Shown here: positions 19,434-47,425 of the stretch, one piece after another
Layout of the letters: each line of letters begins with the position of its first letter
Position numbering within the stretch: position 1 is the stretch's first letter
Assembly (NCBI GenBank): GCA_019310425.1
Contig: JAFDEI010000040.1
Span: forward strand, 108 to 64,107
Reading direction: 5' to 3'
Length of the DNA stretch: 64,000 nucleotides
DNA from: Deltaproteobacteria bacterium
GTDB taxonomy: Bacteria; Myxococcota_A; UBA9160; SMWR01
Notes under the pieces: model-generated
The model's input: the letters and a program-made list of their open reading frames with translations, nothing else
Told to the model about the DNA's origin: nothing
Databases searched by the model: none
Made by a program: the position numbers and the translations under genes

Positions 19434-19438
19434 CCTCG

Positions 19439-33892: not shown

Positions 33893-34030
33893 CGCGACAT
33901 CCTTCCCAGACCAGCGCGAATGCGCCGTCTACCCCAGTTTCTATCGGTCGGAAGGAGCAGCCCGTTGAGTCGCGGCCGGGCCGCAGACCGCTCGGCGAAT
34001 GCGCACGGAACGGGATTCTCCGACTTTTCT

Positions 34031-34077
34031 GGAATTGGGAGCTCTGGCCGCACCACGGCCGACACGCGGCTAACGCC
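34031..34077. repeat. intergenic repeat family, copy D
   Basis: GAGCTCTGGCCGCACCACGGCCGACACGCGGCTAA matches copy A at 26 of 35 positions by hand. Its CTA (34070-34072) is the ruvB stop codon. Confidence 0.5.
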
Positions 34078-35084: not shown

Positions 35085-35701
35085 GACTTCACCAGCATCT
35101 TGAGTGAGCCACGTACCAGGTCCTCCAGCGTTGGCGCGTCACCCGAGGCATCCACTGCACCGGCGAGCGCACGCTCGGCCTGGGACTTCGGATAGCCGAG
35201 ATTGACGAGCGCCGACAGCGTCTGCTCCTGGAGCGCTTCCGCGACCTCGGCCGCGGGCGCGGACGCCCCGGCACTCACACCGCCGACCGCGGCCGCGAGT
35301 TCGGCGGTGCGGTCGCGGAGGTCGACCAGGATACGTTCGGCGAGCTTGCTCCCCACACCGGGCGCCGACCGAAGCACGGCGACATCGCTCCGGTGGATCG
35401 CGGCCAGCAGATCCGGCGGGGAGATTCCCGAGAGAATCGTCTGCGCGAGCCGCGGACCGACCCGATTCGCGCGCAACAGCAGGTCGAACGCGACCCGCTC
35501 GCCGCGCGACGCGAAGCCGAAGAGCTGGAGCGACCCCTCGGGCGCGTGGGTGTAGATGTGGAGCACGACGGTCTTTCCGAGGTTGGGCAGCTGCGTAAAC
35601 GTCGACAGCGGAATCAGCACCTCGTAACCAACGCCGCGAACATCGACCACCACGCGTGTCGGCGAGAGTTCCAGGAGCACTCCCTCGAGGCGCGCGATCA
35701 C
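35081..35701 (-). CDS. ruvA: Holliday junction DNA helicase RuvA
   Basis: [35 protein letters not shown]...LFGF...[18 protein letters not shown]...[16 protein letters not shown] overlap with ruvB. Confidence 0.92.
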
Positions 35702-36249
35702 CGCGCACGCCTGGCGTTGAACGTGACGGCCTTCGCGCGCGGCCCGCGGCGCCTGGAGCCGACACCCACGCCCAGCGCTTCGAGCCGCCCCGCGTTCGCA
35801 TACGCGATCGCCGCGGCAAGCGCGTCGGCGGCATCACTCGCGGGCACCCGGTCGAGCAACAACAGCCGCTTTACCATCGACTTCACCTGCTGCTTCGTCG
35901 CCCGCCCATTGCCGGTCACGGACCGTTTGATACGGGCCGGGGTGTATTCGTTGACCGGCACGCCCGCCCGCGCCACTGCGGCGAGAATCGCGCCGCGCGC
36001 CTGGCCGAGCACGAGCGCCGAACGCGGGCTTGCAGCGACGAACACCTCTTCGACCACGCTGGAGTCCGGCAGATGCTGTGCGATCACATCCGAGAGGGTG
36101 GTGTAGAGCTGGTCGAGCCGCGACGCCAGCGGAGCGCCTGCGACCGGCCGAATGACGCCGTGCGCGATGTGGACGAGCTTACCCTCCCGACGCTCGATGA
36201 CGCCGTAACCGGTCGCCGAAGAGCCGGGGTCGATCCCAAGGATCCGCAT
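35698..36249 (-). CDS. ruvC: crossover junction endodeoxyribonuclease RuvC
   Basis: MRILGIDPGSSATGYGVIERREGKLVHIAHGVIRP...EEVFVAASPRSALVLGQARG...DAADALAAAI. 4-nt overlap with ruvA. Confidence 0.92.
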   Translation of the reverse strand: MRILGIDPGSSATGYGVIERREGKLVHIAHGVIRPVAGAPLASRLDQLYTTLSDVIAQHLPDSSVVEEVFVAASPRSALVLGQARGAILAAVARAGVPVNEYTPARIKRSVTGNGRATKQQVKSMVKRLLLLDRVPASDAADALAAAIAYANAGRLEALGVGVGSRRRGPRAKAVTFNARRAR

Positions 36250-36327
36250 GCGCTTCTCCTCGGAGGAACATCAGCCGTTTCACCGCGTCAACGCCACAGC
36301 ACGTGGGAAGGAAGGCCGTGCCGGCCG

Positions 36328-37077
36328 CTAACCCGCGAGCCGCGCCATCTCCTCATTGGAGATGTCGAAGTTCGCGTACACATTCTGTACATCATCCAGA
36401 TCGTCGAGTGCGTCGGAGAGCCGGAGCATCCGCTCCGCCTCGTCGCCCTCGATCTTCACCTGGGTCGTGGGCTCCATCGTGATCTCGGCTGCAACCGACA
36501 CGAATCCCGCCTCCTCGAGCGCGCGCTTGACGGACTCGAAATTCGGCACGGTCGTCGCCACCTCGAGTGTGCCGTCCGACTCGACGACGTCCTCGGCACC
36601 CGCGTCGAGTGCGGCCTCCATCAACGCGTCGGAATCGATGCCCGACAGCTCGAAAGTAATCATGCCCTGCTTCTTGAACAGGTAGCCCACGCAGCCGCTC
36701 GAGCCGAGGTTACCGCCATGCTTGGTCAGCACGTGGCGTACCTCGCCGACGGTGCGGTTCTTGTTGTCGGTCAGGACTTCGACATAGACCGCCGTGCCGC
36801 CGGGCCCGTAGCCCTCGTAGACCCCCTCGTCGTAGGTCTCGGAGGCGTCGCCCCCCATGCCCTTCTTGATGCCCCGGGTGATGTTGTCCTTCGGCATGTT
36901 GGCCTGGCGGGCCTTCTCGACCGCGAGCCGCAGCCGCGGGTTGGAGTCGACCTCGCCGCCGCCGATGCGAGCAGCCGTCGCGATTTCACGAATCAGCTTC
37001 GTGAAGATCTTGCCGCGCTTCGCGTCCGCGGCGCCCTTCTTGCGCTTGATGGTGGACCACTTGGAGTGACCGGACAT
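36328..37077 (-). CDS. yebC: YebC/PmpR family DNA-binding transcriptional regulator
   Basis: [41 protein letters not shown]...[14 protein letters not shown], 249 aa from ATG 37077. The ORF extension to 37365 is not family-like. Confidence 0.9.
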
Positions 37078-37349
37078 GGCAAACCCTGGAGATTGCAGGG
37101 TAAATAGCACTCGCGAGCGACCGGGCCAAGGTCGTGGGGATACCAAGCTACAGATCCACGCCCGGCTTCGACCCATCCGGCTCGAGCTGCCGTACCGGAA
37201 CGCCCCCCTCGCCGCCGCGGGGCTCAGGATGGGCCGCGATTTGCCGATGAATGAAGGAGGAAGGCGTGGGGAGCGCGAGCCGCCCCAGGCACTGTGGGAG
37301 GAGTGCGCCCCCCATGGGAGATTGATGGCCGCATCGGGGTGACGTCGCC

Positions 37350-39521
37350 ATGTCCGAGATCGCAATCGGAATCGACCTGGGAACCAGCAACTCGTGCGTC
37401 GCCGTGATGCAGAACGGCAAAGTGGAAGTCCTCCCCAACGCCTACGGCGAAGCCACGACCGCCAGCGTCGTGGCCTTTCGCGAGGACGGCGGGATCAACG
37501 TCGGGAACGCCGCCAAGGCGAACATCATCCATTGCCCCGATCGGACGGTGCACTCCTCGAAGCGCCTGATCGGACGCTACTTCTTCTCGCAAGAGGTGAA
37601 GAAGGCTCAGGCCATCTGCTCGTATCAGATCATCGAGGCAGAGAACCACGGGCTGCGAATCCAGGTCGGCGAAGAGTGCTTCTCGCTGCCCGAGATCGCA
37701 GCGATGATCCTGTCAGAAATGAAATCCATCGCGGAGGCCCGGATCGGCCAACCCGTCACCAAGGCTGTGATTGCCGTCCCCGCGTACTTCAACGACAACC
37801 AGCGCCAGGCCACCAAGGATGCGGGACGCATCGCGGGGCTCGAAGTGCTGCGGATCCTGAACGAGCCGACCGCCGCGGCGCTGTCGTACGGCTTCGGCCG
37901 TGGCCTGTCGCAGCGCGTCGCGGTTTGGGACCTCGGTGGCGGCACCTTCGACATCTCGGTGCTCGAAATCGGCGACGACGTCTTCGAGGTGCTCTCCACC
38001 GCGGGAGACACCTTCCTCGGTGGCGAGGATTTCGACGACCGCCTCATCGACCTGCTCGCCGACGAGTTTGCCGTTCGCACGGGCATCAACCTGCGCAACG
38101 ACCCGTTCGCCCTCGAGAAGCTCAAAGTCGCCGCCGAGGGCGCCAAGAAGGGATTATCACTGGAGTCAGAAGTCGAGATTCGCATCCCGGACGTGATTAC
38201 GGACGAGAACGGCGAGAGCCACTCGATCGAGCGCAGCCTCACGTCAATCGAATACGCGGCGCTCGTAAACGACCTGGTCCAGACCACTTTCAAGGTCTGC
38301 GACGAAGCGCTCCAGCAAGCCGGCGTCGTCGCGCGCGACCTGGATGGCGTGATGCTGGTAGGCGGCCCGACGCGACTGCCGCTGATCCGCGACACCGTCC
38401 GGGAGTACTTCCAGCAGGAGCCGCGCGAGGGCATCGACCCCGACCGGGTCGTCGCAATGGGAGCCGCGATCCACGCCGCCTCGCTCGTGAGCCCGGATCA
38501 GGAAGCCTACCTGCTCGACGTCACACCGCTGTCGTTGCGAATCGGCATCGTGGGTGGGCTCGCCGAGAAGGTGATCGAACGCAACACCCCGGTCCCGATC
38601 GAGCAGACCCGCACCTTCACGACCTTCAAGGACGGGCAGGAGTCCGTCGAGATCAAGGTCTTCCAGGGCGAGTCCCAGGAGGCTGAGGATAACGAGTTGC
38701 TCGGGCAGTTCTCGTTCGCGGATTTCGACAAGGGAGCCCGCGGCGAAGTCGAAATCGACGTCACCTTCGAGATCAACACCGACGGCATCGTGAGCGTGAC
38801 GGCGACCGATCGGGCGACCGGTCGGGCCGCCTCCACGCGCATCACCCTCTCGTCGGGCCTGTCGGAGGACGAACTCGATGACATCATCGATCAGGGTCGC
38901 ACCGATCGAATCGAGCAGACCCCGGTCCTGGACGAAAATGACCATGTGATCGGCGCGATCCCACTGAAGAGCATCCCTGCAGATACGCCGGTGATCTTCG
39001 AAGAAACCCGCGCGTCGAAGACCAAGCTGCTCGACGACGACAGCGATCTGATCGAAGAAGGCGATATCTTGCCGCTCGACGAAGCGCCCGCAGTCCCGGA
39101 AGCGGCACCGGTGACGGCCGCCCCTGCCGAAGGACCGACGGGAGAAAGCGGTGAAGCGCCCCAGCTGAAGTCCGAGCCATCAGCATTCGACCTGAGCGAG
39201 AAGACCGCTCAGGTGAACTCCAGCGACCCCGACGAGATCGCGGCCTTTTCGGGCAACTTCGCCGAGAAAGCCGTCGACCCGATCGCGATCAGCACCGAGG
39301 ATGAAGGCGACGAACTCGACCTGATCGATCTCGACGACGACGCCGAGGATCTGGACCTGCTCGGGGGAGACGATGAGGACGACCTCGGCGGACCGATCCT
39401 CGAACTCGGTCGCGACGCCGAACTCGCCGACACCGAGCCGGTGATGACGAAGGACGAGTTGTTCGAGACGCCTGGTACCGACCTGTCGGCGCTCGACGAC
39501 GACTCCGAGGAGCCTCGCTAG
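37350..39521 (+). CDS. atypical Hsp70 family protein (NBD and beta-sandwich SBD; helical lid replaced by a long acidic tail)
   Basis: [64 protein letters not shown] and [10 protein letters not shown]...[15 protein letters not shown]. The last ~190 aa are low-complexity and D/E/L-rich ([28 protein letters not shown]). Confidence 0.88.
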
Positions 39522-39524
39522 CCC

Positions 39525-40037
39525 GTGCCCGAGATGGCCCCGACCGAGATCAAAGCGCTCGCCCGTATCATCGATGAGCTCGACTATTACCAGCTGCTCC
39601 ACCTCAAGCCAAACGCGAGTCCGCGAGACGTCAAGCTCGCCTTCCACTCGACGTCCCGGGTCTTCCACCCGGACGCGAACCGGCATCTCGACAGCGACCT
39701 CCGGTCGGCCGTGGGCGACATCGCAAAGCGAGTCACCGAGGCGTATCAGGTGCTGCGGGACGCGCGACGCAGGGGCGCCTACGACGACCAGCTCGGATCG
39801 GGCGGCGGCTCGCGCATCCGCCTTGCCGAAGCTCTGACAGCGGGCAGCCGACAGGACACCGAAACACGCCAGGGCCGAACGCCCCAGGGCCGCCAGTACT
39901 TCAATCTGGCGAACCTGGATGCGAAGCGGGGCGACTGGGCCGCCGCCGCTCGGCAGTTGCAGACAGCGCTCACCTTCGAGCCGGACAACGAGTTCTTCAA
40001 GTCCGAGCTGAAAGCCGCCCGCGAAAAAGCCCGCTAG
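39525..40037 (+). CDS. J-domain protein with C-terminal TPR motif
   Basis: YYQLLHLKPNASPRDVKLAFHSTSRVFHPDAN carries the HPD motif; the C-terminus GRQYFNLANLDAKRGDWAAAARQLQTALTFEPDN is TPR-like. GTG 39525 is 3 nt after the Hsp70 stop; ATG 39534 is an alternative start. Confidence 0.8.
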   Translation: MPEMAPTEIKALARIIDELDYYQLLHLKPNASPRDVKLAFHSTSRVFHPDANRHLDSDLRSAVGDIAKRVTEAYQVLRDARRRGAYDDQLGSGGGSRIRLAEALTAGSRQDTETRQGRTPQGRQYFNLANLDAKRGDWAAAARQLQTALTFEPDNEFFKSELKAAREKAR

Positions 40038-40116
40038 CCAAGAGTCCCGAGGACACCTCGCCCGAGACACGCCCGGCACGTCCCCGAATCCGATATTCGC
40101 GAGCTCGAGCAGGAAC

Positions 40117-40190
40117 GCGGATCGGCTCGGGGGGCCCTTCCGCGCCCTTCAAACGGTTGCGAAAGGGCCCCCCGAGCCGATCCGCTTTTG
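40117..40190 (+). terminator. intrinsic terminator candidate: perfect 23-bp stem followed by TTTT
   Basis: GCGGATCGGCTCGGGGGGCCCTT (40117-40139) pairs perfectly with AAGGGCCCCCCGAGCCGATCCGC (40163-40185). The loop is ~23 nt, followed by CTTTTG. It lies 80 nt after the J-protein stop. Confidence 0.65.
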
Positions 40191-40225
40191 CAGGAGCCCC
40201 CGATAAGTCAACTGAGGGGTAGCGC

Positions 40226-40281
40226 GAGGCGGGGGGTGCCTTTCGCGGCGTTCAAAAGGGCGCGGAAGGCACCCCCGCCTC
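40226..40281. repeat. second, imperfect G-rich palindromic hairpin related to the 40117-40185 element
   Basis: GAGGCGGGGGGTGCCTTTCGCG ... CGCGGAAGGCACCCCCGCCTC (one bulge, one mismatch). Both loops contain TTCAAA and both stems contain GGGGGG..CC.TT.CGCG. Confidence 0.55.
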
Positions 40282-40400
40282 GTGCGGGTCTCGATTCGTC
40301 GTCGTATTTGACAGCCGTATGGGTCCGCTGGCATGCTCCGGATCCGGTTGACACGAATGTCAATCGTCTCAACGCGACGGCGATAAGGAATCAGTGGATC

Positions 40401-40829
40401 ATGGCGGATGATGCTGCGGCGAAGGCGCCGCTCCCGGTCGTACCTTACTTGAAGATCCCCGCGGACGGGGCGCCCTTCCTCGAAGCGCGGCAATGCAGTG
40501 GTTGTGGGAAGATCTTCCTTACCGAGCGGAACACCTGCGCGCACTGCGGCGAGAGCGGCCTGATGCAGGCAAAGCCGCTCGCCGACACCGGTTCGCTCTA
40601 CGTCTACTCAATCGTCCACCGTTCGTTCCCGGGCGTTGCGGTCCCCTATGTGTCGGCAATCGTCGATCTCGACGGCGGAGGAACGGTGAAGGGCAACCTG
40701 ATCAACATCGACCCCGATCCCGAGAAGATCCGCATGGGGATGCCGGTCGAGGTGGTCTACCAGATCGCGCCGACGAAGGACGCCGACGGCAACGAGTACC
40801 TGACCTACTACTTCCAGCCGGCTGCTTGA
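40401..40829 (+). CDS. Zn-ribbon/OB-fold protein (DUF35 family, acyl-CoA-associated)
   Basis: Four-Cys ribbon CSGCGKIFLTERNTCAHCG, then YVYSIVHRSFPGVAVPYVSAIVDLDGGGTVKGNLI...GMPVEVV. ATG 40401 is preceded by AAGGAA. Partner thiolase-like gene lies downstream. Confidence 0.8.
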   Translation: MADDAAAKAPLPVVPYLKIPADGAPFLEARQCSGCGKIFLTERNTCAHCGESGLMQAKPLADTGSLYVYSIVHRSFPGVAVPYVSAIVDLDGGGTVKGNLINIDPDPEKIRMGMPVEVVYQIAPTKDADGNEYLTYYFQPAA

Positions 40830-40857
40830 GCGGGCGGAGACAACGGGAGCAACAGCA

Positions 40858-42000
40858 ATGAGCGACGTCTACGTCCTCGGTATCGACATGATCAAGTTCG
40901 GGCGTTACCCGGAGAAGAATGTCCGCCAGCTCGGCGCCGAAGCGGCGCAGCTCGCGCTCGCCGACGCGAATCTGACGATCCACGACATGGAGGCCCTCTA
41001 CTCGGGCAATCTGATGCAGGCCGGCGCGATGGTCGGTCAGGGAATCCTCCAGGAGATCGGCCAGACCGGCATTGCAGTCACGAATTCCGCGAATGCGTGC
41101 GCAACCGGCGCAACCGCGTTCCGCGAGGGCTGGACAGCGATCAAGGCCGGCCTCTACGACCTCGTCCTGGTGGTCGGTTCGGAGCAGCTCGGAAAGATGG
41201 GGCTCCTCGGGGGCGGGGGCAGCCGCAAGGGAATCCCCAAGGAAGGCCTGCTCGGATCGCAGACGATGCCTGCAGTCTTCGCCGAAGCCGGGCAGGAGCA
41301 CGCGCGCAAGTACGGCACGACGTTCGAGCAGTTCGCCAAGGTATCGGTGAAGAACCACCAGCATTCGGTCAAGAACCCGAAGTCGATGTACCAGAAGGAA
41401 ACGCCGCTCGAGATGGTGATGGGCGCGGAGATGATCGCGTACCCGAATACGAAATTGATGTGTTCGGTCAACGTCGACGGCGCTGCGGCAGCAGTGCTCG
41501 CCTCGGAGAAGAAGGCGCGCGAGCTCGGCATGGGGCGCGCGGTGCGGGTGAAGGCCTCGGTACTCACGAGCGACCCGTTCACCGACCGCGACCTGGTGAT
41601 GCCCGACGTCAATACCTGCACTCGCCTCGCAGCCAAGCAGGCCTATGAAACCGCCGGCGTCGGCCCCGAAGACATCGACCTCGTCGAACTGCACGACTGC
41701 TTCGCCACCGCCGAGATCCTCCACTACGAGAACCTCGGCCTGTGCGGCGACGGTGAGGCCGGCAAGTTGATCGACGAAGGCGTCACCTGGCACGGTGGCC
41801 AGACCCCAGTGAACGTGTCGGGCGGATTGCTGTCGAAGGGGCACCCGCTCGGAGCCACGGGTGTCGCGAATATCTACGAAGTCTCGACGCACCTCCGGGG
41901 CGAGGCGGGTGCGCGCCAGGTCGAAAACGCGAAGGTCGGTCTGACCCACGTCATCGGACTCGGGAGCGCCTGCGGAATCCACATCCTCGAGAAGGCCTAG
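40858..42000 (+). CDS. thiolase-like protein (SCP-x / lipid-transfer type acetyl-CoA acetyltransferase family)
   Basis: 380 aa: VYVLGIDMIKFGR, active-site region NSANACATGATAF, VLVVGSEQL and C-terminal NVSGGLLSKGHPLGATG. Shows the typical DUF35-thiolase pairing. Confidence 0.85.
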   Translation: MSDVYVLGIDMIKFGRYPEKNVRQLGAEAAQLALADANLTIHDMEALYSGNLMQAGAMVGQGILQEIGQTGIAVTNSANACATGATAFREGWTAIKAGLYDLVLVVGSEQLGKMGLLGGGGSRKGIPKEGLLGSQTMPAVFAEAGQEHARKYGTTFEQFAKVSVKNHQHSVKNPKSMYQKETPLEMVMGAEMIAYPNTKLMCSVNVDGAAAAVLASEKKARELGMGRAVRVKASVLTSDPFTDRDLVMPDVNTCTRLAAKQAYETAGVGPEDIDLVELHDCFATAEILHYENLGLCGDGEAGKLIDEGVTWHGGQTPVNVSGGLLSKGHPLGATGVANIYEVSTHLRGEAGARQVENAKVGLTHVIGLGSACGIHILEKA

Positions 42001-42007
42001 GAGAGAG

Positions 42008-42072
42008 CAACGCGAAGCGTTGGTCTCGACGACGCGGAAGCTCTGGCCGCAAAGCGGCCAGAACGCAGCTAG
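42008..42072. repeat. intergenic repeat family, copy A (GAA-loop hairpin plus GAAGCTCTGGCCGC...CGCAGCTAG core)
   Basis: CAACGC-GAA-GCGTTG hairpin, then ACGCGGAAGCTCTGGCCGCAAAGCGGCCAGAACGCAGCTAG. The 41-nt core matches copy B at 34 of 41 ungapped positions (hand count). Confidence 0.6.
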
Positions 42073-42186
42073 GCGCATTCCTCACCCGAGTACGACCTGG
42101 GACGAGAACTCTGCTCGTTGCGGAATCGAGCCGTCAACCCCAGGGTCCGCTTGCCCCCGGGTGGACGGCCTCTTATTCTGCCGGGC

Positions 42187-44118
42187 GTGAACTACCGGTT
42201 TCTGATCTCTGCACTCCTGGTTGCCAATCTCATCGCCTGCGATCGACCGAACGCCGACGCCGACGCCGCAGAGGGCGAAACGCCCAATGCAACCGTAAAG
42301 CTCGCAGCCGCGGAATCACCGCCCCCGGCGAAGAAAGCGGCCAAGAGGCCCGCAGCAAAGCCCGTTCGAAAAGAGCGGCCCTTGCCGGCATTCTCGGGCT
42401 TCACACTCGACCGCAAGAAGATCTCGGTCTCCGAACTGCTCGGCAAGCGGCTCATGATCTTCTTCTTCAACCCGGAAGTGAAGAACGCCGAGATCGTCGC
42501 GACCGCGAAGCACGGATTCGACTTCCCAATCATCGACGATCCGAGCGCGAAGATCGCGCGGCAGTTGGGCCTGCAGGTACCGATTGCGATCATCGGCGCG
42601 GATTCCGAGGGCTACGTCACGTTCGGCATGGGGCAGTTCCCGAGCGATGGCCCCGACGACACCCGGGTGATCGAGAACATGCTGCGCGCGTCGCTTCGAT
42701 TACCGGAGCTCGCAAGCAACTCGGAGCCCGAGCTCGGCACACGGCCGGAAGCCCCGAATTTCGAGATCGAGATCCTCGACAGCGACGAAGGCTTCGAACT
42801 CGCCGCGCAACGCGGCAAGCCGGTGATGCTGATCTTCTTCCTCCACACCTGCCCTCACTGCCACGATGCGATGGCCGCGATGAAGCAGGCCATCAACGAG
42901 ATGCCCGAGGCGAATCGGCCCGCGATGATCGGCATCGAGGTGACCGGGCGGACCGCAGCCGTGCGCGCAAAGCTCTCCGAGCTCTCGCTCGATTTCTTCC
43001 CGACCGGCTTCGACCATGACGGCAGCATCCGGGCCGCTTTCGGCGTATTCGGCGGCGTACCCGACACCTTCCTGATCGATGCGCAGGGCCGCATCGCCGC
43101 ACACATCCAGGGCTGGCGAGACGAATCGGACTCGCCGCTGCTGCGCATGCGGTTGGCGCAGCTCGGGGGAGCGCCGGTGCCGATGCTGCTGCGCTCGAAG
43201 GGCTACAGTGGAAACGAAGCGTGCGGTGTCTGTCACGAAAGCGAGCACGCCACCTGGATGCTGACCGAGCACGCGCGCGCGTTCGACACGCTGGTGAAGC
43301 ACGGCAAGACAAACGACGCCGAGTGCGTGAGCTGCCACGTCGTAGGCTACGACGAGCTCGGCGGCTTCGAGGGGCAGGACACGCCGCAGCTGGAGAACGT
43401 CGGCTGCGAGACGTGCCACGGTCGCGGCGGCGGCCATCTCTCGCCGGAGTTCGTCAAGATCCTCGACTACACCAGCATCTGCGTGACCTGCCACGACACC
43501 AAGCATTCGCTCGGTTTCGAATACGCCACCTTCCTGCCGAAGATCTCGCATGCAGCCAACAAGCACGTGCTCGCTCTGCCGCTCGAGGAGAAGCGCAAGA
43601 TCCTGGCCGAGCGCGGTCTGCGGCGCAGCAATCTGCTTCCGACGGCTGCGAAGATCGTGGGCTCCGACGCCTGCCAGAGCTGCCACCAGACCGAGTACGA
43701 GATCTGGCGGAAGAGCGGCCACGCCCGTGCGGGTGAGTCGCTCACGAAAAAGGGCTCCGAAGGCGACCAGAACTGCCTCGCTTGCCACACGACCGGATAC
43801 GGGCTCGACGGCGGCTTCGCAAAAGGGGCTGAACTGGCTGCACACGCGGACCGCGGACGGGTCGGCTGCGAATCGTGCCACGGGCCGGGCGGCGACCACA
43901 TCGGTGAGGAGACGCCGAAGTTCGGCAGCATCGTCGCACTCGGCGACAAGTGCGACTCCTGCGTGATTCTCCAGATCTGCGGCAGCTGCCACGACGACGC
44001 CAACGATCCGGGCTTCGAATTCGAGGTGGAGGCGAAGATCGAACAGGAGCGCCACGGCACGACCGAGCCCGGCACCGGCACACCCAAGCTCGCCAACGAG
44101 AAATTCGAGGGAAGCTGA
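42187..44118 (+). CDS. lipoprotein fusing two thioredoxin-like (redoxin) domains to an octahaem c-type cytochrome domain
   Basis: GTG 42187 gives VNYRFLISALLVANLIAC (signal peptide and lipobox). The first redoxin-like domain is Cys-less (LMIFFFNPEVKNAE); the second has GKPVMLIFFLHTCPHCHD. Eight CXXCH motifs follow: CGVCH, CVSCH, CETCH, CVTCH, CQSCH, CLACH, CESCH, CGSCH. They form two similar tetrahaem halves (C..CH...Y/H..W....HA.A). Confidence 0.85.
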   Translation: MNYRFLISALLVANLIACDRPNADADAAEGETPNATVKLAAAESPPPAKKAAKRPAAKPVRKERPLPAFSGFTLDRKKISVSELLGKRLMIFFFNPEVKNAEIVATAKHGFDFPIIDDPSAKIARQLGLQVPIAIIGADSEGYVTFGMGQFPSDGPDDTRVIENMLRASLRLPELASNSEPELGTRPEAPNFEIEILDSDEGFELAAQRGKPVMLIFFLHTCPHCHDAMAAMKQAINEMPEANRPAMIGIEVTGRTAAVRAKLSELSLDFFPTGFDHDGSIRAAFGVFGGVPDTFLIDAQGRIAAHIQGWRDESDSPLLRMRLAQLGGAPVPMLLRSKGYSGNEACGVCHESEHATWMLTEHARAFDTLVKHGKTNDAECVSCHVVGYDELGGFEGQDTPQLENVGCETCHGRGGGHLSPEFVKILDYTSICVTCHDTKHSLGFEYATFLPKISHAANKHVLALPLEEKRKILAERGLRRSNLLPTAAKIVGSDACQSCHQTEYEIWRKSGHARAGESLTKKGSEGDQNCLACHTTGYGLDGGFAKGAELAAHADRGRVGCESCHGPGGDHIGEETPKFGSIVALGDKCDSCVILQICGSCHDDANDPGFEFEVEAKIEQERHGTTEPGTGTPKLANEKFEGS

Positions 44119-44123
44119 GCGCG

Positions 44124-44942
44124 ATGGAGCGGCCGCTGGCAGACGAAGCACGAGCCTTGATCGCGTCGGCCCGCCTGCTGCTGGAAGACTTCATCGAAGA
44201 GGGTGTCCACAGCTTCGAGCGCGCCGTACCCACCGCAGATACCACGGCCATGCACGCCGAGCGCGCGCGATCGAAGCCACTCGAAACCGCGCGAGAGCCG
44301 GTTCGCACTGCCGCTCCGCCGGCGTCGGGCATTGCGAGCGCAACACCTTCGGTCGAACTCCCGGACGAGATCGTGTGGAGCGCGCAGCCGACGCTCGAAG
44401 AAGTACGGAACGAACTCGGCGAATGCACCCGCTGCGGCCTCGCGGTGGGACGCAACCGGATCGTCTTTGGCGACGGCAACCCCGAGGCCGACCTGATGTT
44501 CGTCGGCGAAGGCCCGGGCCAGGAAGAAGATCGCCGCGGCCTGCCGTTCGTAGGCAAGGCAGGCGAACTTCTCACACAGATGATCGAGAAGGGCCTCGAA
44601 ACCCCGCGCAGCGACGTCTACATCTGCAATATCGTGAAGTGCCGACCGCCAAACAACCGCACGCCCCTCGAAGCTGAGATCGCAAGCTGCCGTCCGTTCC
44701 TCGACGCCCAGATCGCCGCGGTGAAGCCGAAGGTAATCGTCGCGCTCGGAAAACCCGCGTCCAGCCTGCTCTTGGGCCGCGACGTCGCGATCACCCGCAT
44801 CCGCGGCAACTGGTTCGAATATCGCGGCATCCCCCTGATGCCGACGCTGCACCCGGCGTACATCCTGCGCCAGTACACGCCCGAAAACCGCCGCCACGTC
44901 TGGGAAGACTTGAAGGCCGCGCTCGCCAGGAGCCGAGAATGA
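44124..44942 (+). CDS. uracil-DNA glycosylase, family 4 (4Fe-4S type) with ~100-aa N-terminal extension
   Basis: GECTRCGLAVGRNRIVFGDGNPEADLMFVGEGPGQEEDRRGLPFVGKAGELL...NIVKCRPPNNR...HPAYILR. ATG at 44124 lies 3 nt after the upstream stop. Confidence 0.88.
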   Translation: MERPLADEARALIASARLLLEDFIEEGVHSFERAVPTADTTAMHAERARSKPLETAREPVRTAAPPASGIASATPSVELPDEIVWSAQPTLEEVRNELGECTRCGLAVGRNRIVFGDGNPEADLMFVGEGPGQEEDRRGLPFVGKAGELLTQMIEKGLETPRSDVYICNIVKCRPPNNRTPLEAEIASCRPFLDAQIAAVKPKVIVALGKPASSLLLGRDVAITRIRGNWFEYRGIPLMPTLHPAYILRQYTPENRRHVWEDLKAALARSRE

Positions 44943-44970
44943 CGAACAGTCCGCGAAGAACGGCGAGCGG

Positions 44971-45453
44971 CTAGAACGGGCGCTCGGGCACCGCCGCGCT
45001 CTGGTCTTCGCGAAATTTCTCGAGCTTGGCGCGTACCTCGGCGTCGCCGCGCGCGATGATCGCGCCCGCGAACAGGCCCGCGTTCTTCGCGCCCGCCTTG
45101 CCGATCGCAAACGTCGCCACCGGGATCCCACCGGGCATCTGTACCGTGGCGAGCAGCGCATCGAGCCCCTGCAATGCCGAGCTGTCGATCGGAACGCCGA
45201 GCACCGGCAGCAGCGTGTGGGCCGCGGTCACGCCCGCGAGGTGGGCCGCCGCGCCCGCCCCGCAGATCACCACCTCGATGCCATCCGCCTCGGCGGCCGC
45301 CAAGAACTTCGTGAGGCGGTCGGGCGTGCGGTGTGCGGAGATCACACGCACGTCGCACGCGACTCCGAGCCCCTCGAGGGCCTCTTCCGCGGGGCGCATC
45401 GTGTCCCAGTCGTTCTTGCTGCCCATGATGATCGCAACCCTGGCGTTGGCCAC
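44971..45453 (-). CDS. purE: 5-(carboxyamino)imidazole ribonucleotide mutase
   Basis: VAIIMGSKNDWDTM, VISAHRTPDRL, GAGAAAHLAGVTAAHTLLPVLGVP and VQMPGGIPVATFAIG. GTG 45453 is preceded by GGAAGGGGA; the longer ORF extension is not PurE-like. Confidence 0.9.
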   Translation of the reverse strand: MANARVAIIMGSKNDWDTMRPAEEALEGLGVACDVRVISAHRTPDRLTKFLAAAEADGIEVVICGAGAAAHLAGVTAAHTLLPVLGVPIDSSALQGLDALLATVQMPGGIPVATFAIGKAGAKNAGLFAGAIIARGDAEVRAKLEKFREDQSAAVPERPF

Positions 45454-45552
45454 ACGACTCCCCTTCCACTCTCGGTTGATCGGGACCAGAGTGTAGGGGC
45501 CGCGTGGACGAAATGGGATAGGCTCGGGACCGCTGGGAGGAAGACGCCGGAA

Positions 45553-46395
45553 ATGGCCCGTCCGAAACAGGAAGTGCGGCGGATCTCGGCCCGGACGGAG
45601 CTGTGCGGGATCGTGCTCCACCCCGCCGGCCACACGCGCTCGCCGGCGATGCACAACGCCGCGTTCGCAGAAGCCGGGATCGACGCGGTCTACCTTGCCT
45701 TCGACGTCCACCCGGATCAGCTCGAAGACGCGCTGGTGGCTGCGCGCGCGCTCGGTGTACGCCAGCTGGCCGTGTCGCTACCCCACAAGGAGGCCGTGCT
45801 CGCCCATCTCGACGAGGTCGAAACCTGCGCACGCGCAATCGGCGCGGTCAACACCGTCACGCTGCGCGACGGGCGACTCGTCGGAACGAATACCGACTGG
45901 ATCGGCGCCGTGCACGCACTCGAGCGCAACGTCGAGCTCGCGGGAGCCAGGGTGATCGTACTCGGCGCAGGCGGGACTGCGCGCGCACTGGTGTACGGGC
46001 TGGTCGAGCGCGGAGCCCTCGTGACCGTGCTGAACCGGACACCGGAACGTGCGCAGGTGCTCGCCGACGATCTCGGCGCCGTGGGCGCGGGACCGCTCCG
46101 AGATCTCGCGCAGACCCCGCACGAGGTACTCGTCAACACGACTTCGGTCGGCCTGCGCACGGACGACTCACCCGTGCCGGCTGCAGATCTGCTTGCGGAG
46201 TCGCTCGTGATGGACGTCGTCTACGACCCCGAAGAGACGCGCCTGCTGCGCGACGCGCGGACTCGCGGAGCCAGCACGATCACGGGCAAATGGATGCTCG
46301 TCTACCAGGCGGCCGAGCAGTTCCGCGATTGGACCGGGCGCGAAGCGCCCTTGGACGTGATGGCCAGTGCCTTCGATGAAGCGGGGGGGAGCTGA
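45553..46395 (+). CDS. aroE: shikimate dehydrogenase
   Basis: HTRSPAMHNAAF, AVSLPHKEAV, GAVNTV, GTNTDWIG and VLGAGGTARA. ATG at 45553; the ORF-track extension from 45217 overlaps purE antisense. Confidence 0.88.
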   Translation: MARPKQEVRRISARTELCGIVLHPAGHTRSPAMHNAAFAEAGIDAVYLAFDVHPDQLEDALVAARALGVRQLAVSLPHKEAVLAHLDEVETCARAIGAVNTVTLRDGRLVGTNTDWIGAVHALERNVELAGARVIVLGAGGTARALVYGLVERGALVTVLNRTPERAQVLADDLGAVGAGPLRDLAQTPHEVLVNTTSVGLRTDDSPVPAADLLAESLVMDVVYDPEETRLLRDARTRGASTITGKWMLVYQAAEQFRDWTGREAPLDVMASAFDEAGGS

Positions 46396-46433
46396 GCGAC
46401 ACCGAAGCAGACGCCAAGCCGGCGGAGGCGCCA

Positions 46434-46481
46434 GCCGCTATTCGGCCAGAGCTTCTGCGTCGTTGCGCGAAACGCTTCTAG
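46434..46481. repeat. intergenic repeat family, copy C (inverted orientation)
   Basis: The reverse complement reads CTAGAAGCGTTTCGCGCAACGACGCAGAAGCTCTGGCCGAATAGCGGC. It matches copy A (CGACGACGCGGAAGCTCTGGCCGCAAAGCGGC) at 28 of 32 positions by hand. Lies between the convergent aroE and ferredoxin stops. Confidence 0.55.
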
Positions 46482-46831
46482 TCCACGAAGCTCCACTTCG
46501 CCTTGTTCTCTTTGACCTGCTCCGGACTCGGCTTGTCCAACTCGACCACTTCGGGAACCGAGAAGTCATCCTTGACGTCGATCATCTTCGCATTCAGATC
46601 GGTGTCGTCACCAAAGACGGTCGGTACCTGCTCGTCCTCGAAGATCGCTTCCCAGGGGCACTCCGGCTCGCAGACGCCGCAGTTGATGCACTCCTCGGGA
46701 TCGATGTACAGCTGGTTCGGGAAGGCCGCGGAGTCATCCCCGTCATAACCGTAGATACAGTCAACAGGGCAGACCTCCACACAAGACTGGTCGACACAAT
46801 CTCGGCAGAGCCGCGTAATTACCCAGGCCAT
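46478..46831 (-). CDS. fdxA: ferredoxin (7Fe-type, 3Fe-4S plus 4Fe-4S pattern)
   Basis: [27 protein letters not shown]...[23 protein letters not shown], with cysteine spacing typical of FdxA-type ferredoxins. Confidence 0.85.
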
Positions 46832-46893
46832 GAATTCCTCTCAGGATTTCGGGACCGCGAGCCAGGCACCCCCGCCCGGCTCCGTAGTCACCG

Positions 46894-47064
46894 CTATTTC
46901 AGCTTTGTCTCTTTGTAGACGACGTGCTTTCGAACGACGGGATCATACTTCTTGAGTTCGAGTTTTCCCGGCGTATTCGTCTTGTTCTTGATCGTCGTGT
47001 AGAAATGCCCGGTACCGGCACTCGACTCGAGCTTGATCTTCTCGCGCTTGCCTTTCTTGGCCAT
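46894..47064 (-). CDS. rpmG: 50S ribosomal protein L33 (Cys-free form)
   Basis: Not in the ORF track (56 aa). Own translation: [56 protein letters not shown]. Confidence 0.88.
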
Positions 47065-47095
47065 CGCCTGCTTCCTCGACCCCGCTGGGGGATCT

Positions 47096-47425
47096 CTAGC
47101 TGGTGGGATCCGGAACGGTCTCGCCGCTCTTCGCGAACACGCGGATGCGGCGGTCTCCGTCCCGCTGGATACGCACTCGGGAGGGGCCTCCGGCTCCTGT
47201 GTCGACGAGCATCACATTCGATGCATCGATCGAACCTTCCTGCTCCACGATCCCACCGGCACGGGCGCCTGAGCGCCCGGGCTTGAGGTGCCGCTTCTGC
47301 ATTCGGACCTTCTCGACGCGGACCTTGCCGGCCTTCACGTTCACACTGAGAACGCGGCCCTGCTTGCCGCGATCCGCGCCCGCGATCACCTGGACCAGGT
47401 CGCCTTCTCGAATTCGACGAATCAT
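47096..47425 (-). CDS. rplX: 50S ribosomal protein L24 (KOW domain)
   Basis: [49 protein letters not shown]...[18 protein letters not shown]...[19 protein letters not shown] is collinear with L24. The location outside an rplN-rplX-rplE context is unusual. Confidence 0.8.

What the first reader, a model, noticed from the sequence alone, without database searches (positions are those of the whole stretch)
42187..44118. Lipoprotein fusing two thioredoxin-like domains (one Cys-less, one CPHC) to two tandem tetrahaem cytochrome c modules
After a lipoprotein signal (LVANLIAC) and an Ala/Pro/Lys linker come two redoxin-like domains. The first lacks the CxxC (LMIFFFNPEVKNAE). Compared with the second domain of the same protein it is about 30 residues shorter between that position and the HGFDFPII strand. 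The second domain carries a DsbA-like CPHC active site (42850-42861). The C-terminal ~260 aa hold eight CXXCH motifs (about 43222-43992) in two similar halves (NEACGVCHESEHATWMLTEHARAF versus SDACQSCHQTEYEIWRKSGHARAG), indicating an internal duplication. Linking a thiol-disulfide oxidoreductase covalently to an eight-haem wire suggests direct coupling of periplasmic disulfide chemistry to a respiratory or extracellular electron-transfer chain. I do not know a characterised example.
Basis: partly seen in the sequence, partly recalled or inferred. Interest (0 to 1): 0.65.

Follow-up and report, generated by a model that had tools for sequence, protein, structure and literature searches.

The report
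Thioredoxin-fold lipoprotein fused to octahaem cytochrome
This is a real, widely conserved but uncharacterised lipoprotein of uncultured Myxococcota that joins a thioredoxin-fold domain with a DsbA-type CPHC site to an eight-haem electron wire, probably so that disulfide chemistry can trade electrons directly with cytochromes; this copy also has a 32-residue deletion in its cysteine-free first domain.

Summary
ORF 42187-44118 (+) encodes a 643-aa lipoprotein: lipobox LIAC, a disordered Ala/Pro/Lys tether, a Cys-less TlpA-like domain, a TlpA/ResA-like domain with CPHC, and two c554-like tetrahaem modules (8 CXXCH; the halves are 37% identical, E=5e-24).

It is not a misassembly chimera. At least 120 full-length protein clusters and relatives in 98 species-level genomes, almost all labelled Myxococcota or Deltaproteobacteria MAGs, share the architecture in a conserved housekeeping neighbourhood.

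The "30 residues shorter" first domain is not a family trait. It is a 96-nt in-frame deletion found only in this contig. A 99.9%-identical sister contig and all 120 homologues are intact.

New points:
- An extra CxxC (CDSC, aa 589-592) sits 9 residues before the last haem motif. It was present together with a CxHC thioredoxin motif in 238 of 238 fusion proteins checked, across two paralogous families.
- The haem module's closest curated relative is the C-terminus of UshA/SoxB-like (seleno)proteins.

No characterised member was found, and gene context names no partner. Best reading: a haem-wired periplasmic thiol:disulfide oxidoreductase. The coupling is inferred, and the electron direction is unresolved (I lean reductive). 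It is a new variant of known kinds, of moderate to high interest.

The parts
42187..44118 (+). Whole gene (GTG start, 643 aa plus stop): redoxin-redoxin-octahaem lipoprotein
   Evidence: ORF list. Product identical to NCBI MBW2287451.1. At least 120 full-length homologues at 53-95% identity.
42187..42240 (+). Lipoprotein signal peptide, MNYRFLISALLVANLIA|C (lipobox L-I-A-C, Cys18)
   Evidence: Read directly from the sequence. A17 and C18 are at least 90% conserved. No SignalP or LipoP was available.
42241..42366 (+). Ala/Pro/Lys-rich disordered tether (aa 19-60)
   Evidence: pLDDT below 50 for aa 1-55. Poorly conserved in alignment A1.
42367..42711 (+). Domain 1: Cys-less TlpA/peroxiredoxin-like thioredoxin fold (FFFNPEV in place of CxxC). 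It is truncated here.
   Evidence: Intact relative P0001: Pfam Redoxin at aa 64-163 and a second AhpC-TSA stretch. AF2 pLDDT is 92-98 with the same topology as domain 2. In the window copy pLDDT falls to 63-89 and there is no Pfam hit.
42503..42504 (+). Junction of a 96-nt (32-aa) in-frame deletion. The missing residues are AIARVAVFRGNHNFQIVGVSQGSNTSTTRSFV.
   Evidence: Window versus the 99.9%-identical contig JAFCZS010000001.1. The segment is present in all 120 aligned homologues and in P0287.
42739..43191 (+). Domain 2: redox-active TlpA/ResA-like thioredoxin fold (aa 185-335)
   Evidence: Pfam AhpC-TSA 6e-19 and Redoxin 4e-11. AF2 pLDDT above 90. Foldseek top hits are ResA, CcmG, TlpA and DsbF, TM-target 0.8-0.89. 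The cis-Pro loop V291-P292 is invariant.
42850..42861 (+). C222-P-H-C225 active site within the invariant LHTCPHCH
   Evidence: CxHC in 238/238 fusion proteins, CPHC in 228.
43204..43626 (+). Tetrahaem module 1 (c554-like). CXXCH start at nt 43222, 43324, 43405 and 43480.
   Evidence: Pfam Cytochrome_C554. Cytochrome c554 (1bvb) E=7e-10. H362, H417 and H455 are conserved distal His across the superfamily.
43642..44061 (+). Tetrahaem module 2 (c554-like). CXXCH start at nt 43672, 43774, 43867 and 43978.
   Evidence: Module 1 versus module 2: 37% identity, E=5e-24. c554 E=3e-10. H512, H571 and H623 conserved.
43951..43962 (+). Extra haem-proximal C589-D-S-C592, 9 residues upstream of the last CXXCH. 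It lies inside the most conserved stretch of the protein (GDKCDSCVILQICGSCHDDANDPGFEFEV).
   Evidence: Invariant in the family. Cys at 82% and 91% at the two positions in 55 diverse octahaem relatives. Present in 238/238 members of the two fusion families.

Best explanation
The gene encodes a membrane-tethered periplasmic thiol:disulfide oxidoreductase whose electron partner is built into the same polypeptide.

**Layout.** A lipid anchor and a roughly 45-residue flexible tether hold four folded units:
- a redox-dead thioredoxin-fold domain, probably a substrate-binding or scaffolding module comparable to the b-type domains of protein disulfide isomerase;
- a ResA/TlpA-fold domain with a DsbA-type CPHC site;
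- two c554-like tetrahaem modules that form an eight-haem wire.

**Proposed mechanism.** Electrons from the periplasmic or respiratory cytochrome pool run along the haems. They are converted from one-electron to two-electron currency at the conserved CxxC next to the last haem motif, possibly through a Cys-haem interaction at the one haem per module that lacks a conserved sixth ligand. They then pass by thiol-disulfide exchange to CPHC, and from there to oxidised periplasmic targets. This would be a route for reducing power that does not depend on DsbD or CcdA.

**Shown.** The domain anatomy, the motifs, their conservation, and the reality and breadth of the fusion.

**Inferred.** Haem occupancy, haem-to-Cys coupling, the role of the CDSC pair, the direction of electron flow and the identity of the targets.

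**This copy.** The 32-aa deletion removes a core strand and one to two helices of domain 1. That domain is probably misfolded, unless the deletion is an assembly error.

**Likelihood.** I put about 0.6 on haem-Cys coupling in either direction. Within that I split about 55:45 in favour of the reductive direction.
For: - **Anatomy and invariance.** All 8 CXXCH, LHTCPHCH, C589/C592 and the lipobox are conserved.
- **Domain 2 fold.** It is a ResA/CcmG/TlpA fold with an intact cis-Pro loop.
- **Cytochrome modules.** They are c554-like. Across 55 diverse relatives there are three conserved distal His per module, as I recall for c554, where one haem is five-coordinate.
- **Persistence of the fusion.**
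  - At least 120 full-length clusters and relatives in 98 species genomes.
  - A paralogous single-Trx family with at least 858 clusters.
  - A TPR-redoxin-octahaem form in Planctomycetes MAGs.
- **Conserved junction.** The Trx-to-cytochrome junction is conserved and confidently modelled, with pLDDT 84-96. This argues for a fixed geometry rather than a loose tether.
- **Co-occurrence of the two Cys pairs.** CxHC and the haem-proximal CxxC occur together in 238/238 fusion proteins. In contrast, 9 of 23 relatives in which my local HMMs found no Trx domain lack the proximal CxxC; that HMM missed some divergent Trx domains.
- **Related sulfur/selenium context.** The same haem module is fused to UshA/SoxB-like Cys/Sec proteins, NF041198.
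- **Chemical precedent.** MccSep shows haem-driven S-S cleavage using a haem-ligating Cys (PMC13510729).
- **Housekeeping character.** The gene sits in a conserved housekeeping neighbourhood in every locus recovered. This fits an envelope-maintenance role better than an accessory respiratory module.
Against: - No biochemical data exist for any member.
- No coordinates were available to me, so I could not measure distances between CPHC, CDSC and the haem sites. AF2 confidence around C589-C592 is low (pLDDT below 50).
- The conserved junction places domain 2 next to haem 1 in sequence, while CDSC is next to haem 8. The two Cys pairs may therefore not be neighbours.
- Outer-sphere electron transfer between bis-His haems and a disulfide is chemically unfavourable, so the model depends on an unproven Cys-haem interaction.
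- A CxHC motif is typical of oxidising enzymes (DsbA, PDI), which favours the opposite direction.
- Gene context names no donor, acceptor or target.
- The co-occurrence statistics are not phylogenetically independent.
- This particular copy may be impaired by the deletion.
Confidence: 0.35

Rival explanations
1. Same hardware, opposite direction. The protein would be a DsbA-like periplasmic thiol oxidase or isomerase. CPHC takes electrons from substrate cysteines, and it is re-oxidised through the CDSC pair and the eight haems. These discharge into the cytochrome pool or a terminal oxidase. This would be a DsbB/VKOR-independent route, analogous in logic to mitochondrial Mia40-Erv1-cytochrome c.
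For: - The CxHC motif (CPHC in 228 of 238) is the DsbA/PDI-type oxidising motif.
- His220, His224 and His226 flank the cysteines.
- A redox-dead Trx domain next to an active one resembles the b'-a' pair of PDI.
- From my own knowledge, the TlpA-fold proteins DsbE and DsbF of mycobacteria act as oxidants; DsbF and MPT53 appear among the hits.
- TsdA and SoxAX form S-S bonds and pass the electrons to haems (cited in PMC13510729).
- Housekeeping synteny.
Against: - The closest sequence and structure relatives are mostly reductases: ResA, CcmG, TlpA, Etrx.
- c554-, c3- and c7-like bis-His haems are usually low-potential, a poor sink unless coupled onward.
- No oxidase or partner cytochrome is encoded nearby.
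- Eight haems seem excessive for re-oxidising one disulfide.
Confidence: 0.25
2. A sulfur or selenium compound enzyme. The haem-proximal CxxC and a Cys-ligated or open-coordination haem would form a catalytic site for S-S or Se chemistry (polysulfide, thiosulfate or tetrathionate, low-molecular-weight thiols, selenite). The thioredoxin domains would act as a resolving or carrier module, comparable to SoxS/SoxW or SoxY-type partners.
For: - The tetrahaem module's best curated match is the C-terminus of the UshA-like (seleno)protein NF041198 (193.7 bits). Its members have SoxB/UshA-like N-termini.
- The proximal CxxC also occurs in a genuine Trx-less octahaem protein, P0134.
- Only three conserved distal His per module, which leaves one haem per module without a conserved sixth ligand.
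- MccSep precedent.
Against: - No sox, dsr, psr or ttr genes are nearby in any locus inspected.
- The conserved housekeeping synteny is atypical for dissimilatory sulfur modules.
- In the window's own family, H372 and H440 are invariant and could complete bis-His ligation in module 1.
- The match to the ExtKL model is insignificant (E=0.014).
Confidence: 0.15
3. A ResA/CcmG-type apocytochrome reductase that became fused to a cytochrome. The CPHC domain would keep CXXCH cysteines reduced for haem attachment, either for its own eight sites or for other cytochromes. It would receive electrons from CcdA or DsbD in the usual way, and the haems would be cargo rather than partner.
For: - ResA is the best PDB match for the thioredoxin domain by sequence (3c71, E=3e-13) and by structure (1su9).
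- NCBIfam ResA, DsbE and TlpA models give weak hits.
- The organism must mature an eight-haem protein.
Against: - Scores are far below the family cut-offs (ResA 50.5 versus 170; DsbE 31.6 versus 359).
- The motif is CPHC, not the CxPC or CPxC typical of ResA and CcmG. The acidic residue three positions after the second Cys in ResA (Glu80) is not conserved (consensus CPHCHExL).
- This does not explain the invariant second CxxC, the Cys-less domain, or the persistence of the fusion in two paralogous families and two phyla.
- Homologous octahaem proteins exist without a fused Trx domain.
Confidence: 0.1
4. A peroxiredoxin or thiol peroxidase fed by haems. "Peroxiredoxin" is the JGI label for many homologues.
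For: - AhpC-TSA is the top thioredoxin-type Pfam hit.
- Many homologues carry the name "peroxiredoxin".
- Domain 1 weakly resembles BCP and 2-Cys peroxiredoxins.
Against: - The peroxidatic-Cys motif Pxxx(T/S)xxC is absent. The sequence is FFLHTCPHC, with Thr at -1 rather than -3 and no Pro at -7.
- The NCBIfam thiol peroxidase hit is E=0.034, 14 bits against a cut-off of 140.
- The best structural matches are TlpA, ResA and CcmG, not peroxiredoxins.
- Domain 1 has no Cys at all.
Confidence: 0.03
5. An artefact: a chimeric ORF from misassembly, or a decaying pseudogene in this genome.
For: - This contig alone carries a 96-nt deletion that removes core secondary structure of domain 1.
- Near-repeats GTCGCGA(C/A) lie at both edges.
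Against: - The fusion is present in relatives in 98 species genomes with the same neighbours.
- The junction region is conserved.
- The deletion is in frame, and the rest of the gene differs from the sister contig at 1 of 1932 positions with every motif intact.
- GC3 is 0.84, typical of real genes here.
Confidence: 0.02

Closest known systems
TlpA-like periplasmic thiol:disulfide oxidoreductases (ResA, CcmG/DsbE, TlpA, StoA, Etrx, mycobacterial DsbE/DsbF)
   Same: Domain 2, and domain 1 in intact relatives, have this fold. They show the N-terminal beta-hairpin, CxxC at the N-terminus of the first helix, and the cis-Pro loop. Like TlpA, ResA and Etrx, the protein is extracytoplasmic and membrane-tethered.
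   Different: - Scores are far below every curated family cut-off.
- The motif is CPHC.
- The known proteins are single-domain and are recharged by CcdA or DsbD.
- Here the domain is preceded by a Cys-less copy and covalently followed by eight haem sites.
Cytochrome c554 of Nitrosomonas europaea (PDB 1bvb/1ft5) and the Pfam Cytochrome_C554 family
   Same: Each module aligns with c554 over its first three haem motifs and two distal His (E=7e-10 and 3e-10). There are four CXXCH per module and three conserved distal His per module.
   Different: - The module is duplicated in tandem to give eight haems.
- The fourth-haem region diverges. In module 2 it carries an extra conserved CxxC.
- There is no link to hydroxylamine oxidation. 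The NCBIfam c554 model scores 63.9 against a cut-off of 400.
UshA-like (seleno)protein, NCBIfam NF041198
   Same: Its C-terminal roughly 150 positions are the closest curated match to both haem modules (193.7 bits, two stretches). A redox-active chalcogen motif (Cys/Sec) is fused to the same kind of tetrahaem module.
   Different: - The N-terminus is a SoxB/UshA-type metallophosphoesterase, not a thioredoxin fold.
- It has one module, not two.
- The window protein is below the cut-off (275) and is not a member.
- That family is itself functionally uncharacterised, as far as I could find.
MccSep / ExtKL multihaem selenoenzyme of Geobacter sulfurreducens (PMC13510729)
   Same: A periplasmic multihaem c-type cytochrome that cleaves S-S bonds using a haem-ligating Cys plus a second chalcogen residue. 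It shows that haems can drive disulfide-type chemistry.
   Different: - Five haems, a tetramer, Sec-dependent, no thioredoxin domain.
- Sequence similarity to the window protein is insignificant (E=0.014).
- The substrate is polysulfide.
Sco-cytochrome c fusion proteins (for example in Pseudomonas putida; Banci et al., J Biol Inorg Chem 2011, 'Sco proteins are involved in electron transfer processes'). The content is recalled from memory; only the title was seen, in reference lists.
   Same: A thioredoxin-fold Cys-pair domain covalently linked to a c-type cytochrome, with proposed electron transfer from the haem domain to the Trx-fold domain.
   Different: - Monohaem class I cytochrome.
- Sco uses CxxxC plus His to bind copper.
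- Here there is CxxC, no Sco signature, and no Pfam SCO1-SenC hit.
DsbA and protein disulfide isomerase
   Same: The CPHC (DsbA) or CxHC (PDI) active-site motif. A redox-dead thioredoxin-fold domain sits beside an active one, as in the b and a domains of PDI.
   Different: - There is no DsbA helical insertion; the fold is TlpA-like.
- No DsbB or quinone partner is evident.
- Not homologous beyond the thioredoxin superfamily.
Ferredoxin:thioredoxin reductase (conceptual analogue; my own knowledge)
   Same: It solves the same problem: feeding single electrons from a metal cofactor into a disulfide that then reduces a thioredoxin. It does so with a disulfide placed directly beside the cofactor.
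   Different: It uses a 4Fe-4S cluster, not haem. The fold is unrelated. The analogy is an inference, not a finding.

Membership tests
Bacterial lipoprotein | N-terminal signal peptide ending in a lipobox [LVI][ASTVI][GAS]C | tested here: met
   MNYRFLISALLVANL-I-A-C18. A17 and C18 are at least 90% conserved. A lipobox regex matched 90 of 120 family members. SignalP or LipoP and lipidation itself were not testable.
Thioredoxin-fold, TlpA-like subfamily (domain 2) | Thioredoxin fold with an N-terminal hairpin, CxxC at the helix N-terminus, and a cis-Pro loop | tested here: met
   Foldseek TM-target 0.8-0.89 to ResA, CcmG and DsbE. C222/C225 and V291-P292 are invariant. pLDDT above 90.
ResA / CcmG (DsbE) / TlpA equivalogs | Score above the curated NCBIfam cut-off | tested here: not met
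   ResA 50.5 versus 170; DsbE 31.6 versus 359; dsbE subfamily 29.7 versus 123; TlpA 14.3 versus 230.
ResA / CcmG (DsbE) / TlpA equivalogs | Reducing-type CxxC (CEPC, CPTC, CVPC) with a conserved Glu three residues after the second Cys | tested here: not met
   The motif is CPHC, followed by H-(E/D)-x. The comparison motifs are from my own knowledge and from the ResA alignment.
Peroxiredoxin (AhpC/TSA, BCP) | Peroxidatic Cys in Pxxx(T/S)xxC, and a family-level score | tested here: not met
   The sequence is FFLHTCPHC. The thiol peroxidase model scores 14.1 versus 140. Domain 1 has no Cys.
DsbA | CPHC motif | tested here: met
   aa 222-225.
DsbA | Alpha-helical insertion domain in the thioredoxin fold, and a DsbA-family profile match | tested here: not met
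   There is no DsbA Pfam or NCBIfam hit. The secondary structure and the fold matches are TlpA-like.
Sco/SenC copper chaperone | CxxxC plus a distal His, and a SCO1-SenC profile match | tested here: not met
   CxxC only, and no SCO1-SenC hit.
Multihaem c-type cytochrome, c554-like module | Four CXXCH per module with c554-like spacing and distal His; Pfam PF13435 above cut-off | tested here: met
   PF13435 scores 92.9 versus 20.8, in two stretches. 1bvb alignments. Conserved His.
Multihaem c-type cytochrome, c554-like module | Covalently bound haem actually present | not testable with these tools
   Needs haem staining or mass spectrometry of expressed protein.
Cytochrome c554 (CycA) equivalog of nitrifiers | NCBIfam NF043010 above cut-off | tested here: not met
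   63.9 versus 400.
UshA-like (seleno)protein NF041198 | Full-length match above cut-off, including the metallophosphoesterase N-terminus | tested here: not met
   193.7 versus 275. Only model positions 369-519 are matched.
Redoxin-octahaem fusion superfamily (unnamed; defined here) | One active CxHC thioredoxin-fold domain, two c554-like modules and a CxxC 9 residues before the last CXXCH | tested here: met
   All features are present. They are shared by 238/238 checked members of the double-Trx and single-Trx families.

The most novel reading that the evidence does not exclude
The redoxin-octahaem proteins would be a previously unrecognised class of haem-dependent thioredoxin reductase or oxidase. 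A CxxC disulfide placed beside a haem, possibly ligating it, would convert single electrons from a multihaem wire into dithiol/disulfide currency, a haem counterpart of ferredoxin:thioredoxin reductase. This would give Myxococcota, and some Planctomycetes, a way to link envelope thiol-disulfide chemistry directly to the respiratory cytochrome pool without DsbD/CcdA or DsbB/VKOR.
Probability: 0.3. Interest if true: 0.8.

Novelty: new variant of a known kind. Interest (0 to 1): 0.57.

Why it matters
- **A possible third electron route.** Periplasmic thiol-disulfide systems are thought to get or lose electrons through two kinds of membrane machine. DsbD/CcdA import electrons from cytoplasmic thioredoxin, and DsbB/VKOR export them to quinones. 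A thioredoxin-fold domain hard-wired to an eight-haem chain would be a third solution.
- **Scale.** The fusion is conserved across about 1,800 90%-identity protein clusters in two paralogous families.
- **A chemical question.** It would show how haems, which carry one electron, can service a two-electron disulfide.
- **A concrete handle.** The invariant haem-proximal CxxC is a residue-level target for testing this.
- **Uncultured bacteria.** The proteins occur in abundant uncultured marine and sediment Myxococcota, so they could matter for how these bacteria fold envelope proteins or cope with oxidative or sulfidic stress.
- **Annotation.** The "peroxiredoxin" label on many homologues is probably wrong, and this specific copy carries a domain-1 deletion.

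Tried and rejected
- **CPHCH as a ninth haem site.** Rejected. His226 is invariant only in the window's own family, and other fusion proteins have Q, R, K, I or D at that position. The motif also sits at the canonical thioredoxin active site.
- **Domain 1 versus domain 2 by BLASTP in the window copy.** Not significant (E=0.32). The deletion explains this, and the intact relative resolves it.
- **Gene-context inference.**
  - The window has no other CXXCH protein and no ccm, ccs, dsb or porin-cytochrome genes.
  - Neighbours conserved across the 80 loci are housekeeping genes.
  - Contexts of distant fusion proteins share nothing.
- **"Octahaem-only" relatives as evidence for a stand-alone module.** Several are N-terminally truncated genes at contig edges. 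Only P0134/P0281 and a few others with signal peptides are genuine.
- **Literature searches** for a characterised thioredoxin-multihaem fusion found none. The Sco-cytochrome c paper was seen only as a cited title.
- **Promoter and terminator scan** of 39400-45200 gave nothing above the shuffled expectation.


Full report

Yes. The mechanical ORF is 42118-44118 (+), starting at a TTG. The GTG at 42187 gives MNYRFLISALLVANLIAC... and a 643-aa product. That product is identical to the NCBI gene call MBW2287451.1, [quoted passage not shown], on a 65,000-nt MAG contig.

A motif scan gives:
- the lipobox Cys at residue 18;
- CPHC at aa 222-225 (nt 42850-42861);
- eight CXXCH starting at aa 346, 380, 407, 432, 496, 530, 561 and 598 (nt 43222-43992);

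The two cytochrome halves align at 37% identity over 121 columns (E=5e-24), so the internal duplication is real.

Pfam finds Cytochrome_C554 twice (2.4e-26), and AhpC-TSA (6e-19) and Redoxin over aa 188-311. It finds nothing in aa 1-185.

**2. It is not a chimera.**

A search of 5.8 billion proteins returned 919 hits. The best 120 are all full-length (658-730 aa, 53-95% identity) with the same Pfam set. Their names are only generic: redoxin domain-containing protein, multiheme c-type cytochrome, peroxiredoxin.

A scan of one genome per GTDB species found relatives in 98 genomes, of which 80 were kept. All are uncultured, and almost all are labelled Myxococcota, Myxococcales or Deltaproteobacteria.

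In alignment A1:
- all eight CXXCH, LHTCPHCH and C589/C592 are invariant;
- the lipobox A17-C18 is at least 90% conserved;
- the segment joining the thioredoxin domain to the first haem motif is among the most conserved parts. M321, R322, P332, L334, G339 and G342 are invariant there.

The segment is also modelled confidently, with pLDDT 84-96.

**3. The "short" first domain is a contig-specific deletion.**

Every one of the 120 homologues has about 32 more residues after FFFNPEV...VAT.

The window is 99.8-99.9% identical in DNA to contig JAFCZS010000001.1 (GCA_019314225.1) over 32186-47218. The one exception is a 96-nt in-frame gap immediately after nt 42503. The gene otherwise differs at 1 of 1932 positions. 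A second close relative, P0287, is also intact.

The missing peptide is AIARVAVFRGNHNFQIVGVSQGSNTSTTRSFV. In the AlphaFold model of the intact relative P0001, domain 1 (aa 60-205) has pLDDT 92-98 and the same strand and helix order as domain 2. Pfam recognises it as Redoxin and AhpC-TSA.

The deletion removes the second half of the first helix, the next central strand and the following helix. In the window's own model, domain 1 drops to pLDDT 63-89.

I cannot tell whether this is a true strain variant or an assembly error. Near-repeats GTCGCGA(C/A) lie at both edges.

**4. What the parts are.**

*Domain 2.* It is a TlpA-like thioredoxin fold. The top Foldseek hits are ResA, an engineered CPHC variant of ResA, CcmG/DsbE, TlpA, DsbF and the pneumococcal Etrx lipoproteins, with TM-target 0.8-0.89. 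A family profile finds ResA at E=3e-13.

It is not a member of any curated family:
- ResA 50.5 bits against a cut-off of 170;
- DsbE 31.6 against 359;
- TlpA 14.3 against 230;
- thiol peroxidase 14.1 against 140.

It also lacks the peroxiredoxin Pxxx(T/S)xxC motif, so the "peroxiredoxin" label is unsupported.

*The cytochrome modules.* Each matches Nitrosomonas cytochrome c554 (1bvb) over the first three haem motifs and two distal histidines.

Across 55 diverse octahaem relatives, the conserved non-motif histidines are H362, H417 and H455 in module 1, and H512, H571 and H623 in module 2. That is three per module. As I recall, c554 itself has three bis-His haems and one five-coordinate haem.

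In the window's own family, H372 and H440 are additionally invariant.

**5. The wider superfamily.**

A full HMMER scan of 1.84 billion cluster representatives with module 2 gave 5410 hits at E≤1e-3 and 51 at E≤1e-30. Pfam, NCBIfam and motif analysis of the hits show five architectures:

| Architecture | Size | Notes |
|---|---|---|
| Cys-less redoxin + active redoxin + octahaem | about 620-720 aa | the window's type; also found at about 40% identity |
| One active redoxin + octahaem | about 440-515 aa | |
| TPR + redoxin + octahaem | 1082 aa | Planctomycetes MAGs |
| Octahaem alone | about 290-370 aa | some are contig-edge fragments; P0134/P0281 has its own signal peptide |
| SoxB/UshA-like domain + one tetrahaem module | about 420-560 aa | NCBIfam NF041198 "UshA-like (seleno)protein"; P0215 scores 294.8 against a cut-off of 275 |

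NF041198 is also the best NCBIfam match of the window protein, but only over the model's C-terminal 150 positions (193.7 bits, below the cut-off).

The single-redoxin form is a large family of its own, with at least 858 clusters, again mostly Myxococcota MAGs with generic names.

**6. Two cysteine pairs travel together.**

| Family | Proteins checked | CxHC thioredoxin motif | Commonest form | CxxC 9 residues before the last CXXCH | Commonest form |
|---|---|---|---|---|---|
| Double-redoxin | 120 | 120 | CPHC in 115 | 120 | CDSC in 117 |
| Single-redoxin | 118 | 118 | CPHC in 113 | 118 | CPVC in 117 |

By contrast, 9 of the 23 relatives in which my local HMMs found no thioredoxin domain lack the proximal CxxC. 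That HMM missed some divergent domains. These counts are not phylogenetically independent.

The proximal CxxC lies in the longest run of invariant residues in the protein, GDKCDSCVILQICGSCHDDANDPGFEFEV. In the models it sits at the start of the helix that carries the last haem motif, although local confidence there is low.

The His after CPHC, which formally makes a ninth CXXCH, is specific to the window's family. I do not regard it as a haem site.

**7. Context.**

The target is the only ORF in the window with any CXXCH. Its neighbours are:
- upstream: RuvC and YebC (divergent), an Hsp70-like protein, a J-domain/TPR protein, an OB-fold (ChsH2-type) protein and a thiolase;
- downstream: a UDG-family glycosylase that starts 5 nt after the stop;
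- then PurE, a ferredoxin and ribosomal protein genes.

This order is kept in most of the 80 loci. For example, the J-domain gene is present in 53 loci and UDG in 69, and many loci are cut by contig ends.

That pattern indicates a vertically inherited core gene of the lineage. It names no redox partner. The contexts of distant fusion proteins have nothing in common. The consensus promoter and terminator scan was uninformative.

**8. Mechanism.**

*Shown:* the anatomy, the conservation and the persistence of the fusion.

*Inferred:* the haem chain and the cysteine pairs exchange electrons. Single-electron chemistry on a free disulfide is very unfavourable (my own knowledge). A metal-assisted step is therefore needed, and the conserved haem-proximal CxxC is the obvious candidate. 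It may work with the haem in each module that lacks a conserved sixth ligand.

Precedents for haem-linked S-S chemistry:
- MccSep, which uses a haem-ligating Cys plus Sec (PMC13510729);
- TsdA and SoxAX, cited in that paper.

Sco-cytochrome c fusions (recalled from memory) and ferredoxin:thioredoxin reductase are conceptual analogues.

*Direction cannot be settled here.*
- For the reductive direction: ResA-like relatives and low-potential-type haem modules.
- For the oxidative direction: the CxHC motif and the PDI-like pairing of a dead and an active domain.

I put about 0.6 on haem-Cys coupling of some kind and lean 55:45 towards the reductive direction.

Lower-ranked rivals are a sulfur or selenium enzyme (0.15), a ResA-type cytochrome maturation factor (0.1), a peroxiredoxin (0.03) and an artefact (0.02).

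**9. Novelty.**

No characterised member turned up in the searchable literature or in curated families.

The building blocks are well known, and the sequences already sit in databases under generic names. I therefore rate this as a new variant of known kinds. There is a roughly 30% chance that it represents a truly new way of powering periplasmic thiol-disulfide chemistry.

**Limits.**
- There is no experimental evidence.
- I had no access to model coordinates.
- Two structure libraries were unavailable.
- I made no whole-genome check for Dsb or Ccd genes.

Noticed in passing
window 42503/42504 (inside the target gene): There is a 96-nt in-frame deletion relative to a 99.9%-identical sister MAG contig (JAFCZS010000001.1). 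All 120 homologues have the segment. The deletion removes a core strand and flanking helices of domain 1. Near-repeats GTCGCGA(C/A) lie at both edges. It is either a real variant or an assembly error.
   Followed up: yes
window 37350-40037 (+): An Hsp70-like protein (723 aa, with a long acidic, apparently disordered C-terminal tail) is immediately followed by a small J-domain/TPR protein (170 aa). The pair lies upstream of the target in about 50 of 80 related loci. In many loci the J-domain gene directly abuts the target gene. No functional link is evident.
   Followed up: partly
window 40188-42000 (+): A ChsH2-type OB-fold/zinc-ribbon protein and an SCP-x-type thiolase pair sit between the J-domain gene and the target. 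The pair is present in only about 33 of 80 related loci. It behaves like an insertion into an otherwise conserved gene order.
   Followed up: partly
window 44124-44942 (+): A UDG-superfamily glycosylase gene starts 5 nt after the target's stop and is probably co-transcribed. It is present in this position in 69 of 80 loci. Its first roughly 110 residues have no Pfam match.
   Followed up: no
proteins P0203, P0215, P0244 (hits): The tetrahaem module's nearest curated relative is the C-terminus of NF041198 'UshA-like (seleno)protein'. Members combine a SoxB/UshA-like metallophosphoesterase with one c554-like module. This second fusion is uncharacterised as far as I could find, and it hints at sulfur or selenium chemistry.
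   Followed up: partly
L082-L083 and proteins P0291-P0408: There is a paralogous family of about 465 aa with one CPHC redoxin domain plus an octahaem region, and CPVC before the last haem motif. It has at least 858 clusters, mostly from Myxococcota MAGs. It generally lacks a lipobox (2 of 118 by regex).
   Followed up: partly
L087-L088 (P0272, Planctomycetes/Phycisphaerae MAGs): A 1082-aa protein with N-terminal TPR repeats, a redoxin domain (CPRC) and the same octahaem region. This shows that the fusion also occurs outside Myxococcota.
   Followed up: no
window 21930-29798 (+): A giant 2622-aa ORF built almost entirely of TPR repeats.
   Followed up: no
window 55775-57610 (-) and 61329-63305 (-): Two large ORFs (about 611 and 658 aa, with high GC3) have no Pfam match at E≤1e-5.
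   Followed up: no
window 18075-21730 (-) and 31331-33892 (-): A sigma-54 activator (NtrC-type) lies next to a HAMP histidine kinase. Separately, there is a TPR-containing Ser/Thr protein kinase. I would expect this regulatory mix in Myxococcota, and it fits the taxonomic labels of the related MAGs.
   Followed up: no
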